64,000 nucleotides of DNA from the human T2T-CHM13v2.0 reference genome, Homo sapiens. A program made the position numbers and the translations under genes. Positions 50,317 to 63,399 of this stretch are shown here, one piece after another (the stretch's first letter is position 1; every line of letters starts with the position of its first letter). The stretch lies in the NCBI RefSeq assembly GCF_009914755.1, contig NC_060930.1, one strand, 5' to 3'. Below the pieces are notes generated by a model. It ran no database searches and was not told the DNA's origin. It saw only the letters and a list, made by a program, of their open reading frames with translations.

Positions 50317-50604
<288 letters not shown>

Positions 50605-52086: not shown

Positions 52087-52461
<375 letters not shown>

Positions 52462-53796: not shown

Positions 53797-53800
53797 AACC

Positions 53801-54257
53801 TGCAGCAGGATAAGCCCCAGACAAAAACCCCTCAGACACCGAGTTAAAGAAGGAAGCGGTATATTCAGCCGGGAGCATCAGCAAGACTCCTGTCTCAAGG
53901 GCCGAGCTCCCTGAGTGAGCAATTCCTGTCCCTTTTAAGGGCTCACAACTCTAAGCAGGTCCTCTTGAGATTGTCGTGATTGATTGAGCAAGCAGGGGGT
54001 ACGTGACTGGGGGGTGCTGCATGCACCAGTAATTAGAATGGAACAGAATAGGATAGGGATTTTCACAGTGCTTTTCTATATGATGTCTGTAATTACAGAT
54101 AACCGATTAGGTCAGGGGTCCATCTTTAACTACCAGGCCCAGGGTGTGGTGCTGGGTTGTCTGCTTGTGGATTTCATTTCTGCCTTTTAGTTTTTACTTC
54201 TTTCTTTGGAGGCAGAAATTGGGCATAGGACAATATGAGGGGTGGTCTCCTTCCTTA
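53801..54257 (-). repeat. HERV-E 3' LTR (457 bp)
   Basis: Aligns end to end with 61091-61548. Confidence 0.95.
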
Positions 54258-54273
54258 TTCCCCCTGCTTTGAG
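54258..54273 (-). promoter_or_regulatory. Polypurine tract
   Basis: Minus strand CTCAAAGCAGGGGGAA directly before the 3' LTR. Confidence 0.85.
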
Positions 54274-54289
54274 AATCTCACTCAATAGT

Positions 54290-56335
54290 GGGAGTTCTCA
54301 CTTTCATTCTCACTACGCATGTCTTCTCGCAAGACAGATCAATAGTGATTCATATAGTACCCCTATGCTGAAGCATTTTGGTTAACTAAGGTAGCGATGA
54401 AGCTTTTTATCATTTGAAGAAGTACAGGTAGCAAGCAAGGGAGCAGTAAGCAGGTTCCTGTTACTATTATAACTCCTATTATAAGAGTTTTAAATCCTCA
54501 TAGCCCTGGGAACCATTTTCCAAACATGGCCCCAGGATCAAATCCATGCCACACTTGCACAGGCACATGTGCCAGTTTTGTCATATCTCTAACTATGTCT
54601 TCAATTACTTGCCCTTGATCATCTATGTGTAGACAGCAATTAGTAAGGTTAAATTTTCTACAGACCCCTCCTTCAGCTGCTAGCAAGTAGTCAAGAGCCA
54701 ATCTATTTTGATAGGTAGCATTTCTCATCTGAGTTTCTTGCTGGGCTAGAATAGTCAAGGCTCTGCCGGTTTTATTAGTGATTATTTCTAAGACAGCTTG
54801 TAACCGTATGATTCGGTTGATCATGTAAATGGGGGTCTGGTATCTCCATGAGCCGTCTTGTGCCCAAGTAGCATGCCATAATATTGTATGATTCTCTCAG
54901 GGGGCCATTCATCATCTTTCCAATTTCCTATAGCTATGCTTCTCTTTTTGCGGGAAGCATAGACAGGGAAGCCCAGGAGTTTGCCTGTTTTTATGGGCAG
55001 TAGGAAGAAAGATGGTTTAATAGTGCCAATAACACAACTACCTGCCCACTGGTCAGGTAATTTGGCATAAGCTGTATGCCCACATATCCAGTATAATCCA
55101 GTGGGGCTGTCCAGTCCTGGTGGGACTCTGGGTGGGTCCACATTGTTTGCAACTTTGGGAATATGCTAAATGGATTCCTCTCTGTGTGATTTGAACTCCA
55201 CCAAGTGACTATTTTTGTGGTACCATTATACAGTTTCTGTCCCAGACAACTAAGTCGTCCTACGGGGTGAGTGAATTCTTTTCCTTCTCTAGCTATGCAA
55301 TATTGTCCAATAATTGAGGCTTTTAGGACCCAGAAATTATCAGGGTGATTCTTTTGAGCTGGGAATTCATCAGGAATTGTGTCTGTAGGTATTAATTCTG
55401 GGGCTTCCCATGGCCATTGATTTCCCATTACAGTTCCTCCACATGCAAAACATGAAGTGACATTGAGAGACTGGGCCACATGCTCGGCTAATTGCAAAAA
55501 CAAATTTCTTGTTTTTCCTGGAGTTTCTGGTACTGGCACATTTAGTTCATCATAGAAAGTTTGAAACACTGGCTCAGGAAAGCGTTTGTAAACTTCTCCT
55601 CAAACCAAGATATTTACTGGAGGATCCAGTCCAGCCCCGTCGATTCCTAAGGTCACACACTCCCCTTTTTTCCAACGAGGATGAAGGGGATTGGTTATTA
55701 CTAGCTCTAAGGGGTTACATTGTCCCTTAGTATAGGAAGGGCCATTTTTTCCTTTCTGAAGGTGGACTGGATCCTTTTCATTTTTTATCCAAGTAGCCCA
55801 AATGACACAAGACCAGTATCCACATACATTTCCACACAGTCCTAATTCATGACAAATGTACTTATTTTCGGTCATATAGCCTTTTTCCTAACTAAAGAGC
55901 CACATCCCCTTCCTAACTTATTGCTATTAATGACAGTACAGGCATCAAATTTCAAGATTATGCATTTGGGAATCCCTTTTTCTTCTGTTCTGGCTAATAC
56001 TTGTATCATTTATGAGTCCTCACCAGTCTTCAGTCATTAATCTTATTTCAAAAACTGTGGACATGGGAGGCTCAGAGGGGTCATAACACACATCTGGTTG
56101 GTCGTTTCCTGGCTACATACCTTGTACTGAGTGTCATTATATAAATATGTTCCTTTTAAACTTCCTAGGCATTCATAGTAACTATAGAACAGAAAGATTG
56201 TTTTAACTTGCTGCCCTACCTCGGTAACCTGATGTATACACTGAGAGCAGTCTCCATGCAGGGAAAATCAGTGGAAGTTTTTACTATACAAGTCCAAATT
56301 ATAAGGAAAATGAGTCTCATGATGATTCCCCTCAT
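54290..56335 (-). pseudogene. env: HERV-E env, frameshifted
   Basis: Signal peptide MRGIIMRLIFLIIWTC from 56335; CGYWSCVIWATW; furin site RKKR; immunosuppressive domain [18 protein letters not shown]; CX6CC ([10 protein letters not shown]). Split over several ORFs; 3' end approximate. Confidence 0.9.
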
Positions 56336-56448
56336 GCTTCGGCTGTGCGTGGACCAGTCAGCTTCCGGGTGTGACTGGAGCAGGGCTTGTCGTCCTCCTC
56401 AGAGTCACTTTGCAGGGGTTGTCCAGGCTCTGTTTTGCCTCCCAGGTT

Positions 56449-57625
56449 TCAGTGGCTGAAAGGTTTCACATGGCTGTGGTGGATCCAGGCTGGGATTCCT
56501 TCTACCTTTACAGCCGTGGGGGTGGTCAGGATGACGGTCTGAGGTCCTTTCCACCGTGGCCGCAAAGGGGCTACGTTCCAGTCCTTGATCCACACGCCAT
56601 CACCTGGAGAGTAAGGGTGAACTGGGGAGAATAAGCTGATGGGACACCTCTCATTTACCCAAGTTGAGATTGTTTGTGTAATTTTTCCTAAAGCCTGTAG
56701 CTGTCGCTGTAATTCAATTTCACCTAACTCTTGGGGAGTGCCTGGAAGCTCCTGTAGTATTGGAGGAGGCCTATGATACAGCATTTCATAAGGGGAGTAT
56801 TCTATTTTCTTAGAAGGAGTGCATCTAATTTTAAACAATACCATAGGAAGGGCCTGTATCCGCTTTAATCCTGTTTCATGACATACTTTCCTTAAACTAT
56901 TTTTGATAGTCTGATTCATTCGCTCCACCTTTCTGGAACTCTGAGGTCGGTAGGCGGCATGTAGCTTCCAAGTGATTCCTAATGCCTTTGCTGTCTTCTG
57001 TACCAAGTCAGCCACAAATGCTGGCCTGTTATCTGAGCCGATTCATAAGGGCAGTCCAAACCTAGGAATAAGATCTCGGAGAAGCACACAGGTTACCTCG
57101 TAAGCCTTTTCAGTTCGTGTTGGATAAGCCTCTACCCACCCAGAGTAAGTACACACAAGAACCAGCAAATACTTGTTACCTCCACATTTCAGCATTTCTG
57201 TGAAATCCACCTGAAGATCCTCAAAAGGAGCCGCTCCATAAGCTTGTATGCCAGGTGGAACAGTGGGGCCTTGCCTCTTATTGTGCTGTCGGCAAGTAAT
57301 GCACTGTTGTGCTACTGCTTTGGCAAGGGCTGGCAAGAGTGAGATGTAGAAGTACCGGCCTAACAATTTTTCAAGTGACTCTTGTCCTAGATGAGTGGTT
57401 TTGTGCATGGCCAATACGATTATGGCTCCTAGCAACTGCAGCACAGCTACTCTTCCACCTGGCAGTCTGATCCATCCTCCTTTTATTACTTGCCCCTCTT
57501 CTGTGTGGAAGAAGTCTTTTTCTTCCTTAGAATAGGTAGGTACCAGGTCAGGTGTTTGAGGGAGTAAGGGGGCTGCTACTGATGCCCGGTAAGGGGTAGA
57601 TGCTGCTTTTCGAGCTTCTGAATCA
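56449..57625 (-). pseudogene. pol: HERV-E pol 3' part: end of RNase H plus integrase, disrupted
   Basis: ADSEARKAA; HHCC zinc finger (HKTTH...CITC); QVDFTE; YRPQSSRKVERMN; RWKGPQTV...WIHHSHVK. Confidence 0.92.
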
Positions 57626-57794
57626 GCTGTAGTGCGCTATGCCAATTGGGTGTCCGCACTAAGTTCAGCATCAATATGGTGACCTCCCGGAAGCGGGGGA
57701 ACAGCAGGTTGCCTAAGGAGGGGTGAACCGGCCCAGGTCGGAAATTGAGCAGGTCAAAACTCCCGTGCTGATCAGTAGTGGGATCGTGCCTGTG
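57626..57794 (+). pseudogene. 7SL/SRP RNA S-domain fragment (about nt 83-251 of 7SL), embedded in pol
   Basis: gctgtagtgcgctatgcc...gtgtccgcactaagttc..gcatcaatatggtgacctcccgg...ggttgcctaaggaggggtgaaccggcccaggtcggaaa..gagcaggtcaaaactcccgtgctgatcagtagtgggatcg.gcctgtg. Ungapped against recalled human 7SL, about 9 mismatches in 169 nt. The S domain is absent from Alu elements. Confidence 0.95.
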
Positions 57795-58946
57795 CTGTCT
57801 GCAGATCTGAGCTTTCTTCTTGGACACCTTATACCCACAGTCCTCCAGGTGCCAAAGCAGGGCATCTGTCCCTTTAGCACACCTGACTGCTGTGGAGTGT
57901 CCCAGCAGAAGGTTGTCCACGTACAGGAGCAAGATGCAGCCTAGGTCTTTAGCAGGAAGCTTTTGCAGGTCTTGAGCCAGGGCCTCCCCAAAGATAGTAG
58001 GGGAGTTCTTGAACCTTTGGGGAAGCCGGGTCCAAGTGTACTGAGTAGTGACACCTGACTCCGGATCTTCCCACTGAAAGGCAAACAGCTTCTGGCTCTC
58101 AGGAGCTAGTCTGATGCAAAAGAAGGCATATTTTAAGTCCAGACAGGTAAACCAGCTGTCCTCAGCTAGCAGCAGCCCTAATAATGTGTAAGGGTTAGGA
58201 ACTGTTGGGTGCAGAGTCACTGTAGCTTGGTTGACCAAGCATAAGTCCTGTACTGGCTGGTAGTCCTTGGTCCCTGGCTTAGGCACAGGCAGGAGGGGGG
58301 TGTGCCATGGAGACTAGCAAAGAACTATAATTCCATAGGCTTTGAAGTGCCTGAGATGAACCTGGATTCCTTTAAGAGCTTCTCTGGGAACTGGATACTG
58401 CTTTTGTCTAATTGGTTGTGCCCCAGGCTTAACTTCTATGAGTATGGGGGCTTGGTTGACCACCAGTCCTGGAGGATTATCCTCTGCCCATACTCGGGGC
58501 CATTGCTTAGCTAGAGCTGATTTTATCTCTTGGCCTGGCTTGGTTAGAAAAAGTCTCCATTCTTCTTCCCGGGGGACCGTAAGGGCCTTGATAACTCCTG
58601 TTCCCGGTAACTTTAGCTGTAAAGAGCCCTGTTTTGTAAAGCAGATGGTGGCTCTCAGCTTGCTAAGCAGGACTCTTCCCAGCAATAGCAAAGGACAGTC
58701 AGGCATGTACAAGAACTGGTGAACTATCTTATGTCCCCACACCAAGCAGGTCCGTGGTAGACAGAAAGCCTGTTTAGTGGAAACTCCTGTTGCTCTGATT
58801 ATATCAATGGTTTTCTTGGATAAGGGGGCGACCAGGGTTGTCACTACTGAATGTTCAGCACCAGTATCGACCAAAAATTTAATGTCCTTGCCCCTAATTG
58901 TAATCCTGACCATGGGCTCCTTGGGGGTGCTTGAGCCCGGTCCCCT
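57795..58946 (-). pseudogene. pol: HERV-E protease plus N-terminal RT, truncated
   Basis: FLVDTGAEHSV and LLGRVLL (protease); DLKYAFF, QYTWTRLPQRFKNSP and YVDN (catalytic YVDD mutated); stops at KKAQICRQ. Confidence 0.93.
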
Positions 58947-60542
58947 TCAGTCCAGTAGCCCTTCAGCCAGATTGAACAAAGCTCCCTCATCTTTATCTGA
59001 GGTCTTTTGTTCTGAATCACCTTGCTTTTCCTTCAGCTGGGGACACTTATCTTTCCAATGTCTTATTTCCTTATAGTAGGTGCATTGGTTATGTTGCAAG
59101 CGTGGGGGATTAGACTGGGTATTCTTCCCGGAACCCCCCCTTTCCCTCTCCTTTCAGAGGAATTCCCCTAATGGCCGTGGCCAGTAAGTTGGCGTTTCGC
59201 CTAGCCTGGCGTTCACCTTCCTTACGGCTTTCTCTGCGGCTTGTTGCATCTCTATTCACAAACACTTGATTGGCTGTTTCCAGTAACTGTGAGGTATTCA
59301 CACCTGCAAACTCAGCCTTGTTTCTGCAATTTTCTCCTGATATCTTTCACGCTTTGACTAACTAAGGCCATGTTAATCATGCGCTGATCTTCAGGGCTAT
59401 CTGGATCAAAAGGAGTGTACATACGGTAAGCCTCACACAGTCTTTCATAGAATTGTGCCGGACTCTCCTCTTTTCCTTGGATGACCTCAGAGACCTTATT
59501 TACATTTGTAGCCTTTTGAGACCCTTTCTTTAGACCTTCTATTAATGTCTCACGGTACCATCTTAGCCTCTTCACGTCTGGTCCCTCATTCGGGTCCCGT
59601 TGGGGGTCTGTTCCTGGCAGCTGAATTCTTATATATTCTTGGGGGTTTTGGTAATCGGCCGGGACGTGCTCTTCTAGCCACTTAGTTGCTGCCTGGAGCA
59701 CCCTTCGCCTTTCATCTGTATTAAAGAGGTACATGAGCAGCTGAGGCTATCAGCCCAAGTAGGATTATGAGTCTGTATAATAGTTTGGAGCAAGTCAATT
59801 AAAGCTTGAGGCTTTTCAGTGTAAGATGGAGTATTATTTTTCCAATTGAGGAGGTCAGCAGAGGTGAAAGGTTGATACACAAAGGCACACCTTTCCACCA
59901 TGTGTCCGTCCTCATCTACCCCAGTATATCGCTGCTGTCTCAGGGGCATTTGGATTCCAGTCTTGGGCAGTAAGCGAGCTGCCAAGGGAGGAGTTTCTCC
60001 TGCGGCTTCACTTCCTCTTTTGTCTACTCTGGGCGGTCTAGGGGTGTGGTTATCTGGTGGAGGTGGAGGTGCTGTGGGCTCAGGGCTTGGGGAGCCCTTC
60101 CTCTCCATAAGGAGGGGGTACTGCTGGTACCAATTCCTGCCATGATTCTTCTGGTGTTGGGTCGGACAGACTTTTGGTGCCGACTTCCCTCTGCGGGTGG
60201 AGCGAGAACCTTCCTTAACGAACTGTTCCTTTGCTGCTAGTACTGCTGCTGCCTGTCCTCTTAACCACTGTGGGGGGTCCAAAACTAGCTGTAACCAAGA
60301 ATCTATATATGGGAAGTGATCTGGGTGTCCTGGCTTACAGGTTACCCTGTGCCGTACTTTCGAGACAAGGGACCTGTCCAGGCTTTCTTCTGATGGCCAA
60401 CCCACCTCTATGGCCAGTCTATCTCACACAAAGTTCTAAGTTTTCCTGGTATCATGATGCCTCTATAGTCTCCCTTAAATCCCTTTTTGAAATTTTTCAA
60501 TATAGTTCCTAGTGGGGTGGGCTTACTTTGTGCCTGACCCAT
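58947..60542 (-). pseudogene. gag: HERV-E gag, frameshifted
   Basis: MGQAQSKPTPLG (Gly2 myristoylation type); PTAPPP; YQPFTSADLLNWK; MHR VIQGKEESPAQFYERL; broken zinc knuckle CTYYKEIRHWKDKC; TGA stop at 58949-58947. Confidence 0.92.
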
Positions 60543-60647
60543 ATTTCCTCGAGACAAAACACCACACTCACACCACATGCACACCACAAAATGAAGAACG
60601 GGTAAAAAGGGCACACACACACTTTTACAGTTTACACCAAACCAGAA

Positions 60648-60747
60648 TCAAAACCAAAATCAGAGTATCAAGAAATCCAAGCCAGGTCAAAACCAAAACC
60701 AAAGTATCAAGCAATTCAAGTCAAGTCAAAAACAAAAACCAAAGTGC
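60648..60747. repeat. About 2.5 copies of a 39-bp tandem repeat in the HERV-E leader
   Basis: tcaaaaccaaaa(t/c)ca(g/a)agtatcaag... units start at 60648, 60687 and 60726. Confidence 0.8.
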
Positions 60748-61067
60748 CAGTACAGGCATGCTGTGGGTGATCAGGCCATGCTTCCACTCAAATGGAGTGG
60801 GCAAGTTCCAAAGACTAGTCTTACCAAGTTTCAGATGTCCGGACTCCAAGTGCCAGTTCCTTCCCGGTGTTCAGCCACTGTGTTGATCCTCCACGGGAGC
60901 CTGCCATGTGCTGCTCTGGCGAGGCATTCCACTGGGGCAATTGCCTACCCGGGAGCGCTCTCAGGATCCACGTCGCTCAAGCTGGCCAGAGTCCCCTGCG
61001 GGGATGCTCCACAGGGCAGGCCTAAGCCGCCTAAGGGGCTGCCTCCACTGTCCGTTAATCACCACGT

Positions 61068-61085
61068 TTCCTGGTCAGGGAACCA
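61068..61085 (-). promoter_or_regulatory. Primer-binding site complementary to tRNA-Glu
   Basis: TGGTTCCCTGACCAGGAA versus TGGTTCCCTGACCGGGAA (17/18), 5 nt from the LTR end. Confidence 0.92.
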
Positions 61086-61090
61086 AGAAA

Positions 61091-61548
61091 TGTAGCAGGA
61101 CAAGCCGCAGACAAAACCCCTCAGACACTGAGTTAAAGAAGGAAGTGGTTTATTCCACCGGGAGCATCAGCAAGACTCCTGTCTCAAGAGCTGAGCTCCC
61201 TGAGTGAGCAATTCCTGTCCCTTTTAAGGGCTCACAACTCTAAGGGGGTCGCTTGAGAGGGTCGTGATTGATTGAGCAAGCAGGGGGTACATGACTGGGG
61301 GCTGCATGCACTGGTATTTAGAATGGAACAGAATAGGACAGGGATTTTCACAGTGCTTTTCTATACAATGTCTGTAATCTATAGATAACATAACCAATTA
61401 GGTCAGGGGTTGATCTTTAACTACCAGGCCCAGGGTGTGGCACTGGGTTGTCTGCTTGTGGATTTCATTTCTGCCTTTTAGTTTTTACTTCTTTCTTTGG
61501 AGGCAAAAATTGGGTATAAGACAATATGAGGGGTGGTCTCCTCCCTTA
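61091..61548 (-). repeat. HERV-E 5' LTR (458 bp)
   Basis: Adjacent to the PBS and followed by TSD AACC. Confidence 0.95.
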
Positions 61549-63399
61549 AACCTGGTGGAATGCAACTGAAGGAGAAGGATTGGAGATCTGCACTTATCAA
61601 AACAGCAAATCAACAAAAAGGTAAACAGCTTATTTTTCTGAATTTTGAAAACATTTTATGATGCTGCCTACATTTATTAAAGAACACATGACCATAATGA
61701 TAATAGTGAAAATTAAGTGATGATTAATAGTCTCTCTCTCTGTTTTTATGTGTGAATATTTCCATATTAGGAAAAAGAAGTGTCTTTGTTTCTTAAGGTC
61801 CGATGCTCCAAAATGGAATAACGTGACTTATAACCCTAAATATCTACTCTCATGACTGACACCACCCAAGATCCAGGGAATCACTTCATATATATCCTTT
61901 CCAGTATCCTATATCCTTGAAAGAGAAGGCAGCTGTATTTAAATGCCACAAATGTTTGTGGGCAGTTTCCTTGCCAGTCTGCAAAACAAATAATGCTTTG
62001 AGTGGAGGGAAGATTTGAGCAGGGGAATCATTTAGCTAAGATAAAAGACAAATTAACTTGTCAAATGATTTCTCACAGACAAGAAGAAGGCAGTAGATTC
62101 TTGTATTATAAAAGATCATTTCCCGTAATACCAAGCATACTGTTTCTTGCTTCATTTCATGTTGCAGTTTATGGTTCCAGTATTAACCACAAATCATGAT
62201 GACATTCACAACAGTTGCACCTGGTGGCTGAGGGACATTTTATAGAATTAAGGTATTTATGTTACTTCTAGACATAACATGAATTGTGATACCAGCTCAA
62301 CTAGCTGAAAATTGAACACGGGAATTATGAGTAGTTTGAATTGTATTAACATACACAATAAGATTTATGTAAATTTTTAAAAATTAAATAAAAACCTTAA
62401 ATATTCAATTTTAAATTTTTATGTTTTATAATTTTAATAACTAATGTTGAATATTTCATGAGATAATTTTTTGAAAATGTAAAAAATAATTTTAATTTTT
62501 GAATTAGTTTACATTAATTTTAATTTGCTTTTTTGATGAAATAGTATTCAAGCTTTGCATGCACTGAATATGATTACATATTGTCTTTTCATCTTTTAGA
62601 ATAATTGCTACCAGTAGATCTTAAAATAGGTGAAAATATTAATAATTATTATGAAATAATCATTTTGCTAAAATGAAAGCAAGAAAAACACATTTTATGT
62701 AATAAATAATAGATCAAAAATTAAACTTGTCTTTATTACTGATTTATACATTAATCATGCATCAACAGTACAACCAGACATGTGCAATAATAACTAAATT
62801 CATTTGTCTTTGATATCTTGCTAGTTTTCAGCCTTATGAAACCATAGTGTTTGTTACCCATGTCTTTGGATTTTTTCATTAGGAAAGTGTATTTGGCAAG
62901 GTAGGGAGATAAGACATATGTTTAATGGTATGTGAGCCTTATTTTTACCCTCCCCTGGGCCCCACTGCTGTTAAAGGAAGAACTAAACAAAGAAGACAAG
63001 AAACTTGGTCTAAACCGGAATGTTGTGTGATAATTTAAGGTGTTGATAAAAGCAGACTTTAGTCTCAGGCAAAGCCAGTGAAGAGAGAAAACTGAAGTCA
63101 GGAGTTAGCTGATGAGTGGAAGAATAAGGGAAAGTTGAGAGACTACGCTGAAAAGTTCGGATTTTGAAGCTTTGCCTGTTCTTTTGGACTGCTTGAGTTA
63201 CTCTGACTTTTTCTGTGTTTTCATGCCAATTATGCTGTTATTTTCAGTCTTTATTAGCTGGTTTATATATCACCTCATAATTCCCAATAGATATCTTTAG
63301 TGGGTTCACATGTCTGTGTGAAAATTTAGGTATGCAATAAAATCATATGTATTATGAATAAATAAATATGTGTGCTTAAATTTTTTTCTTTGAGTTCTC

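What the first reader, a model, noticed from the sequence alone, without database searches (positions are those of the whole stretch)
57615..57805. Antisense orientation and junction microhomologies constrain the capture mechanism
Seen: the provirus is on the minus strand and 7SL on the plus strand, so the insert is antisense to viral RNA. At the left junction GCT (57626-57628) fits both 7SL and the viral Ala codon of ADSE. At the right junction TG (57793-57794) could be either 7SL or viral Gln. Inference: copy-choice during minus-strand synthesis would give a sense insert. An antisense insert instead implies RT jumping onto 7SL RNA during plus-strand synthesis, or microhomology-mediated break repair using 7SL RNA/cDNA as filler.
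Basis: partly seen in the sequence, partly recalled or inferred. Interest (0 to 1): 0.75.

Follow-up and report, generated by a model that had tools for sequence, protein, structure and literature searches.

The report
Backwards 7SL RNA patch in HERV-E pol
One ancient retrovirus copy in the human genome lost about 1.2 kb of its polymerase gene and carries in its place a backwards 169-base piece of the cell's 7SL RNA, most likely a fossil of a copying error by the virus's own reverse transcriptase.

Summary
A gammaretrovirus-like (HERV-E-type) provirus lies on the minus strand at 53801-61548. It has two LTRs and a 4-base target-site duplication. Window 57626-57794 on the plus strand is 7SL RNA nt 83-251, the S domain only, so it is antisense to the virus.

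Close intact relatives match the virus up to 57628 and again from 57793. GCT is therefore shared at the left junction and TG at the right. Random joins give this much overlap in 1.4-2.9% of trials. Relatives carry about 1167 nt between the breakpoints, encoding the RT connection and RNase H domains. No other scored genomic copy has either junction. Non-CpG divergence makes the patch about as old as the provirus.

Best reading (0.55): RT in the infecting particle switched template onto packaged 7SL. Main rival (0.33): break repair after integration, using a reverse-transcribed patch. Orthologous primate loci would decide, and they are not available here. This is a new natural example of a known kind of event. 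The orientation survey found no second ERV-nested case in the 100 loci sampled.

The parts
53801..61548 (-). HERV-E-type gammaretrovirus-like provirus, 7,748 nt, flanked by the 4-nt target-site duplication AACC (+ strand) at 53797-53800 and 61549-61552
   Evidence: LTR repeats, LTR alignment, TSD letters. Pfam on - strand frames finds Gag_MA, Gag_p30, RVP, RVT_1, integrase zinc finger and core, MLVIN_C and TLV_coat.
61091..61548 (-). 5' LTR
   Evidence: It differs from the 3' LTR at 35 of 452 aligned positions, 30 of them non-CpG.
53801..54257 (-). 3' LTR
61068..61085 (-). Primer-binding-site-like 18-mer, 5 nt inside the 5' LTR. Assignment to tRNA-Glu is recalled and was not tested.
   Evidence: Sequence read. 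No tRNA comparison was run.
57795..58313 (-). RT fingers and palm, up to the breakpoint. The catalytic-motif region reads YVDN in this copy.
   Evidence: RVT_1 matches profile positions 1-193 of 205. Translation.
57793..57794 (.). Right-junction microhomology TG, shared by 7SL nt 250-251 and the virus
57629..57792 (+). 164 nt that can only be 7SL (nt 86-249), antisense to the virus. With the two overlaps, 57626-57794 equals 7SL nt 83-251.
57626..57628 (.). Left-junction microhomology GCT, shared by 7SL nt 83-85 and the virus
57043..57625 (-). Last residues of RNase H followed by the integrase N-terminal half, in a different frame from RT
   Evidence: ORFs. zf-H2C2 and rve hits. The frame offset follows from the coordinates.

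Best explanation
While the RNA of an infecting HERV-E-type particle was being reverse-transcribed, the polymerase left the viral template near the end of the RT palm region. It copied 7SL nt 83-251 from a co-packaged 7SL molecule. It then rejoined the viral template about 1.17 kb away, at the last residues of RNase H. Each switch was guided by 2-3 complementary bases. This is a host-RNA 'patch' made by nonhomologous recombination with a third template.

Because the patch is antisense, the copied template was one of two things. Either 7SL RNA was read during plus-strand DNA synthesis, or single-stranded 7SL cDNA was read during minus-strand synthesis. The enzymes already in the particle finished the job, and the defective DNA integrated normally. 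It left no descendants.

Shown: the anatomy, the overlaps, the deleted domains, that no other scored copy has the junctions, normal integration, and the age. Inferred: that the event came before integration, and which strand was being made.
For: Anatomy. The junctions are clean, with 3-nt and 2-nt overlaps and no untemplated bases. That much overlap arises in 1.4-2.9% of random joins. The roughly 1167 nt present in relatives (range 1139-1181 in 18 copies) encode RT_RNaseH and RNase_H domains. Those domains are absent here.

Normal integration. There are two LTRs and a 4-nt duplication.

Age. The patch shows 4 non-CpG changes in 169 nt (2.4%). The LTR pair shows 30 in 452 (6.6%), or about 3.3% per lineage. 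5 changes fall at the 13 CpGs.

Source. The chr14 genes are the best match. None of 29 other loci shares the four private non-CpG changes.

A private event. Only this locus spans the junctions among the scored candidates: 40 of 1021, 40 of 110 and 40 of 194.

Background from papers. The gammaretrovirus MLV packages about 6-8 copies of 7SL per virion, without SRP19 (PMC4378196, passages). 7SL is reverse-transcribed in virions and in infected cells (PMC2175372, passages). A 7SL sequence was 'patched into an experimental recombinant', and host sequences with chance microhomology can splint nonhomologous junctions (PMC4997597, passages).

Structure. In the Rfam consensus structure, nt 250-252 border an internal loop of helix 5, and nt 83-85 lie in an 8-bp stem. 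That fits entry at an open site and exit at a duplex if the RNA was the template. This is weak support.
Against: Nothing in this one genome shows that the event came before integration. The patch length falls inside the 73-414 bp range reported for patches that repair chromosomal breaks, and those patches also show microhomology (PMC5110952, passages). No extended homology supports either direction of synthesis (P = 0.18-0.86). The fragment (169 nt) does not match the 111-nt S-domain remnant reported in NC-less particles (PMC8185352 and PMC6004055, passages). The thermodynamic fold used for accessibility did not reproduce the native 7SL structure. I recall that most retroviral recombination occurs during minus-strand synthesis, so the plus-strand route is the rarer kind. 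An internal 7SL fragment (nt 75-201) also exists outside any ERV context, so such fragments do not need a virus.
Confidence: 0.55

Rival explanations
1. Chromosomal break repair after integration. A double-strand break, or two breaks, in the resident provirus lost about 1.17 kb. End joining sealed it using a reverse-transcribed piece of abundant 7SL RNA, or the RNA itself, as filler. This would be a class 2 templated sequence insertion.
For: There is no target-site duplication and no A-tail around the patch, and both junctions have microhomology. 169 nt lies within the 73-414 bp range (median 191) of experimental patches, which derive from RNA (PMC5110952, passages). Orientation is free in this model, so an antisense insert needs no special explanation. 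Another internal 7SL fragment (nt 75-201) lies in non-ERV DNA.
Against: It requires a random event to hit a retroviral pol gene with exactly the host RNA that retroviruses enrich and reverse-transcribe. Only 1 of 100 sampled S-core loci is ERV-nested, and it is this one. The cited class shows microdeletions, whereas this is a 1.17-kb loss. The patch is as old as the provirus, which leaves little time after integration, though not none.
Confidence: 0.33
2. A DNA-templated replication error. A stalled fork in the provirus switched by microhomology to a genomic 7SL gene or pseudogene, then switched back (FoSTeS or MMBIR type).
For: Both ends have microhomology, and a deletion accompanies a templated insert.
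Against: The best matches are the chr14 genes on another chromosome. None of the 29 loci examined shares the patch's private changes. Only 29 of the many 7SL loci were compared, so a lost or unsampled donor is not excluded.
Confidence: 0.05
3. An ordinary L1-made 7SL pseudogene inserted into the provirus, followed by unrelated deletions that trimmed both the pseudogene and the virus.
For: The locus is annotated as pseudogene RN7SL564P (hub annotation). Most 7SL loci are retro-copies: 69 of 99 sampled are near full length.
Against: There is no A-tail, no 3' end and no duplication. Both 7SL ends abut viral sequence with exact overlaps, and the viral flanks are 1.17 kb apart in relatives. That would require two independent deletions each ending in microhomology.
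Confidence: 0.03
4. The patch is a family feature of a recombinant ERV lineage, such as Harlequin.
For: My own recollection was the only lead.
Against: Only this locus carries either junction among the scored candidates. None of 20 relatives' pol segments has any Rfam hit. The Repbase review describes Harlequin without any 7SL part (PMC5753468, passages).
Confidence: 0.01

Closest known systems
Experimental retroviral recombinant containing 7SL sequences (Hajjar and Linial 1993), and 'patch repair' or third-template insertions in nonhomologous retroviral recombination
   Same: A packaged host 7SL sequence is inserted between two non-adjacent viral points, with short chance homologies at the joins. 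This is as summarised in PMC4997597 (passages).
   Different: This is a germline fossil in a human endogenous provirus, not a cell-culture product. It is antisense. I could not read the original paper (not held), so its orientation and junctions are unknown to me.
Class 2 templated sequence insertions at repaired double-strand breaks (PMC5110952)
   Same: Patch size, likely RNA origin, microhomology, and no duplication or A-tail.
   Different: Here the target is a retroviral pol gene, the donor is the RNA most enriched in virions, and 1.17 kb was lost rather than a microdeletion.
L1-mediated 7SL processed pseudogenes (the RN7SL...P loci)
   Same: Both derive from 7SL RNA. This locus is annotated in that class as RN7SL564P.
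   Different: This is an internal fragment only (nt 83-251), with no 3' end, A-tail or duplication. 69 of 99 sampled loci are near full length. The rest are mostly truncated at one end.
7SLrem and S-domain RNAs in retroviral particles
   Same: Both are S-domain-only pieces of 7SL associated with retroviral particles (PMC4997597, PMC8185352; passages).
   Different: 7SLrem is 111 nt and this patch is 169 nt. Its end points were not available to me (paper not held). No identity is claimed.

Membership tests
Metazoan SRP (7SL) RNA, Rfam RF00017 | Covariance-model score above the gathering threshold | tested here: met
   126.2 bits against 70.
Metazoan SRP (7SL) RNA, Rfam RF00017 | Complete molecule with Alu domain and S domain (model 1-299) | tested here: not met
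   Only model positions 97-251 match. BLAST limits are 7SL nt 83-251. This is a fragment, not a gene.
L1-mediated processed 7SL pseudogene | Intact 3' end with A-rich tail, plus a flanking target-site duplication | tested here: not met
   The match ends at nt 251 and abuts viral sequence directly on both sides.
Gammaretrovirus-like endogenous provirus (HERV-E type) | Paired LTRs with a 4-nt target-site duplication | tested here: met
Gammaretrovirus-like endogenous provirus (HERV-E type) | gag-pro-pol-env domain order on one strand | tested here: met
   Pfam hits, on the frames listed.
Gammaretrovirus-like endogenous provirus (HERV-E type) | Primer-binding site complementary to tRNA-Glu | not tested
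   The candidate 18-mer was read. Its match to tRNA-Glu is recalled and was not compared with a tRNA gene.
Gammaretrovirus-like endogenous provirus (HERV-E type) | Member of a multi-copy family with close relatives | tested here: met
   19 loci match at 88-95% over the left-flank query. 39 loci match at 86-94% over the right flank.
Retroviral nonhomologous recombination patch (third-template insertion) | Foreign insert replaces viral sequence between two distant points, with short homology at each join | tested here: met
Retroviral nonhomologous recombination patch (third-template insertion) | Donor is an RNA known to be packaged and reverse-transcribed in particles | tested here: met
   From the literature only: PMC4378196, PMC2175372, PMC4997597.
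Retroviral nonhomologous recombination patch (third-template insertion) | Made before integration | not testable with these tools
   This needs orthologous loci from other primates. Only this genome is held.
Class 2 templated sequence insertion | No duplication or A-tail, microhomology at the joins, patch of about 70-400 nt | tested here: met
   with the size range from PMC5110952.
Class 2 templated sequence insertion | Arose at a chromosomal break, here meaning after integration | not testable with these tools
   The same missing comparison with orthologous primate loci.

The most novel reading that the evidence does not exclude
The patch records reverse transcriptase using something other than genomic RNA as an internal template in a natural germline infection. 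That template was either 7SL RNA during plus-strand synthesis, 7SL cDNA during minus-strand synthesis, or a 7SL fragment that mis-primed minus-strand DNA and was then copied like the tRNA primer. If so, small host-RNA patches inside endogenous proviruses form a readable fossil record of what ancient virions packaged. Their orientations and end points, taken across many genomes, would show how often each route is used in nature.
Probability: 0.25. Interest if true: 0.65.

Novelty: new member of a known kind. Interest (0 to 1): 0.42.

Why it matters
Retroviruses are known to package 7SL RNA in molar excess over their genome, and in culture they occasionally patch host sequences into their DNA. 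Natural, dated examples are scarce. My searches listed no paper describing a 7SL piece inside a HERV; I read only the listings, plus passages of the papers cited. This locus offers base-exact junctions, a defined deletion and an unexpected orientation.

On its own it is an anecdote. It does define a concrete search: Rfam small-RNA hits nested in ERV internal regions, scored for orientation, end points and accompanying deletions. That search could turn the long-standing question of plus-strand against minus-strand recombination into a counting exercise.

There is also a practical point. RN7SL564P is annotated 81 nt longer than the real 7SL match, and it is not a processed pseudogene in the usual sense.

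Tried and rejected
**Harlequin lead.** I recalled that the recombinant family Harlequin might carry 7SL. The Repbase review passages do not say so, and no other scored copy has the junctions. Rejected.

**Extended homology.** I looked for homology beyond the 2-3 nt overlaps to infer the direction of synthesis. All four comparisons were unremarkable (P = 0.46, 0.18, 0.46, 0.86).

**Pseudogene donor.** None of 29 loci shares the private changes.

**Match to 7SLrem.** The lengths differ (169 against 111 nt), and the end points were unavailable.

**Accessibility by RNAfold.** nt 250-252 have an unpaired probability of 0.69, which is in the top 11% of 3-nt windows; nt 83-85 have 0.22. The predicted fold is not the native one, so I lean on the Rfam structure instead.

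**Survey.** A 25-nt S-core pattern with up to 3 mismatches hits 430 places (reversed-pattern control 0), of which 100 are listed. I fetched the other 99.
- 69 are near full length, 21 are 3'-truncated, 5 are 5'-truncated and 4 are truncated at both ends.
- Of those four, L148 is interrupted by an Alu, and L138 and L139 are low-identity copies (nt 58-258).
- L067 (nt 75-201) lies in AT-rich DNA with Alus nearby, with no retroviral domain among the six ORFs tested, and tblastx to this provirus matched only the 7SL part.
- So there is no second ERV-nested case, and no orientation statistic is possible. The other 330 matches, and more diverged copies, were not seen.

**Other host-RNA patches.** None of 20 relatives' 3.2-kb pol segments has an Rfam hit. 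9 further fetched relatives were not scanned.

**Papers and tools I could not use.** Papers not held: PMC238240, PMC254795, PMC2937644, PMC2168973. No supplements were consulted.

Full report
**What is there.** The window holds one Rfam hit. Metazoan SRP RNA matches 57641-57795 on the + strand at 126.2 bits, against a gathering score of 70. It covers model positions 97-251 of 299, which is the S domain without the Alu domain.

I ran BLAST of 57540-57880 against 29 other 7SL loci from the same genome. No match extends beyond window 57625-57794, and the three chr14 gene copies match 57626-57794. L003:1419-1718 is a complete 7SL gene. Aligned to it, the window stretch is 7SL nt 83-251 with 160 of 169 bases identical.

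**The surrounding element.** This is a provirus on the - strand.
- The LTRs lie at 61091-61548 (5') and 53801-54257 (3').
- The same four bases flank the element at 53797-53800 and 61549-61552. This is the short duplication expected of gammaretrovirus-type integration.
- The - strand frames give Pfam hits in the order Gag_MA, Gag_p30, protease, RVT_1, integrase zinc finger and core, MLV integrase C-terminal domain, and a weak TLV_coat hit.
- An 18-mer just inside the 5' LTR (61068-61085) looks like a tRNA-Glu primer-binding site. That identification is recalled and was not tested.
- The family has many copies. 19 loci match the left-flank query at 88-95%, and 39 loci match the right flank at 86-94%.

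**The junctions.** On the left, none of the 39 other scored relatives extends past window 57628. On the right, 33 of 39 begin exactly at 57793. lines up 18 close relatives that contain both breakpoints.
- 16 of 18 have GCT at the left site.
- 17 of 18 have TG at the right site. L038 is counted after allowing for a 2-nt register shift in my printout.
- The next base differs between virus and 7SL on each side. The overlaps are exactly 3 nt (57626-57628) and 2 nt (57793-57794), with no untemplated bases.
- In 200,000 simulated random joins between a relative and 7SL, one overlap of 3 or more together with another of 2 or more occurred in 1.4%. A total of 5 or more occurred in 2.9%.

One detail needs correcting. 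The viral Ala codon is 57625-57627, and base 57628 is the last base of the codon before it. TG is the start of a Gln codon seen in the relatives.

**What was lost.** The relatives carry 1139-1181 nt between the two breakpoints, with a median of 1167. In relative L036 this segment encodes the RT connection (RT_RNaseH, 1.8e-09) and RNase H (7.7e-21). In the window, RVT_1 stops at profile position 193 of 205 and no RNase H domain is found. The RT frame runs on through the antisense 7SL, while integrase lies in another frame. This copy could not have replicated unaided. The catalytic-motif region of RT also reads YVDN here.

**Is it a private event?** Only this locus spans either junction among the scored candidates: 40 of 1021, 40 of 110 and 40 of 194. 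The tool scores only the best candidates, so this is strong evidence but not exhaustive. None of 20 relatives' 3.2-kb pol segments has any Rfam hit. 9 further fetched relatives were not scanned.

**Age and source.** The two LTRs differ at 35 of 452 aligned positions, 30 of them outside CpG transitions. That is 6.6%, or about 3.3% per lineage. The patch differs from the 7SL gene at 9 of 169 positions. Five are CpG transitions, among 13 CpGs, and four are other changes (2.4%). The patch is therefore about as old as the provirus and is not a recent addition. The four non-CpG changes are not shared as a set by any of 29 other 7SL loci. Together with the best match being the chr14 genes, this points to genuine 7SL RNA, or its gene, as the source rather than an old pseudogene.

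**Mechanism.** The window + strand has the sequence of the proviral minus strand, and it carries 7SL in sense. From this the possible templates follow.
- A DNA strand with 7SL-sense sequence must be made on antisense 7SL, meaning 7SL cDNA.
- The proviral plus strand carries antisense 7SL, so it can be made directly on 7SL RNA.

At least three in-particle routes remain.
1. Plus-strand synthesis switches onto 7SL RNA and back.
2. Minus-strand synthesis switches onto single-stranded 7SL cDNA and back.
3. A 7SL fragment mis-primes minus-strand DNA and is later copied, as the tRNA primer normally is. This needs only one true switch.

The background makes these routes plausible.
- The gammaretrovirus MLV carries about 6-8 copies of 7SL per virion, without SRP19 (PMC4378196, passages).
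- 7SL DNA appears in HIV-1 virions after endogenous reactions and in infected cells (PMC2175372, passages).
- A review reports a 7SL sequence patched into an experimental recombinant. It also reports host sequences splinting nonhomologous junctions through chance microhomology (PMC4997597, passages).

In the Rfam consensus structure, nt 250-252 border an internal loop of helix 5, while nt 83-85 sit in an 8-bp stem. If RNA was the template, copied from nt 251 towards nt 83, entry was at an open site. Exit came about 16 nt into a duplex that the enzyme would have had to unwind. This is suggestive only. The thermodynamic fold agreed on accessibility but did not reproduce the native structure. A search for longer imperfect homology upstream of each switch, in both directions, found nothing.

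**The main rival.** The alternative is repair of a chromosomal break in the already integrated provirus with a reverse-transcribed patch. Such class 2 templated insertions are 73-414 bp in experiments. They derive from RNA, lack duplications and A-tails, and show microhomology (PMC5110952, passages). All of this fits, and orientation is free in that model.

Two things count against it. A random event would have had to strike a retroviral pol gene with the very RNA that virions enrich. The loss is also 1.17 kb, not a microdeletion.

My rough weighing rests on recalled per-cycle rates and on the sample below, not on any call. It favours the in-particle route, but not strongly. I put it at 0.55 against 0.33, with the rest on a DNA-templated replication error, an L1 pseudogene followed by deletions, and a family feature.

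This could only be done in part.
- A 25-nt S-core pattern with up to 3 mismatches hits 430 places in the genome (reversed-pattern control 0), and 100 of them are listed.
- Of the other 99, which I fetched with 500-nt flanks, 69 are near full length, 21 lack the 3' part, 5 lack the 5' part and 4 lack both.
- Of those four, one is interrupted by an Alu and two are low-identity copies.
- The fourth (nt 75-201, C3:9.366 Mb) lies in AT-rich DNA with Alus nearby and no retroviral signal.

So 1 of 100 sampled loci is ERV-nested, and it is this one. No orientation bias can be computed from a single case. An internal 7SL fragment does exist outside any ERV.

**Comparison with what is known, and novelty.** The event works like the third-template patch insertions of retroviral nonhomologous recombination, or alternatively like a class 2 templated insertion. 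It is not an ordinary processed 7SL pseudogene, although it is annotated as one. My literature searches listed no paper describing a 7SL piece in a HERV. I read only the listings, plus passages of PMC5753468, PMC4997597, PMC2175372, PMC8185352, PMC6004055, PMC5110952 and PMC4378196. The original 1985, 1993, 2007 and 2010 papers were not held.

I rate this a new member of a known kind. It is a clean, datable natural example and is useful as a seed for a systematic search. By itself it cannot settle which strand's synthesis made it.

Noticed in passing
window 57566-57815: The RefSeq pseudogene RN7SL564P is annotated over 250 nt, but the 7SL match is only 57626-57794 (169 nt). The remaining 81 nt are HERV-E pol sequence.
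   Followed up: yes
window 61487-61620: An alternative FABP7 first exon (hub annotation) starts inside the provirus's 5' LTR (61091-61548) and runs antisense to the LTR into the flank. The LTR may supply an antisense promoter.
   Followed up: no
G000:C1:103501196-103783804: Seven HERV-E pol matches of equal score (86% identity) lie about 47 kb apart on alternating strands, so a tandem or inverted segmental array carries the same provirus. I recall the amylase gene cluster being in this region, but did not test that.
   Followed up: no
loci L061-L159: 21 of 99 sampled 7SL loci lack the 3' part, with ends between nt 199 and 260. That is four times more than lack the 5' part (5 of 99), and the opposite of what L1-type 5' truncation gives.
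   Followed up: partly
L067 / L160:2371-2497 (G000:C3:9366270-9366396): There is a second internal 7SL fragment (nt 75-201, 92% identical) in AT-rich DNA with Alus nearby. No retroviral domain was found among the six ORFs tested. It is a candidate break-repair patch.
   Followed up: partly
L153-L158 (G000:C13 11.5 and 12.9 Mb; C14 6.5, 7.8 and 9.4 Mb): Five near-identical diverged 7SL copies (nt 10-260, 77% identical to 7SL) lie on acrocentric short arms, so they were spread by segmental duplication.
   Followed up: no
window 57795-58313, - strand: The RT catalytic-motif region reads YVDN in this copy. That is a further inactivating difference besides the deletion.
   Followed up: no
window 50317-50543 and 52119-52344: A pair of 85-86% identical direct repeats lies 1.8 kb apart. 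They look like two Alu elements.
   Followed up: no
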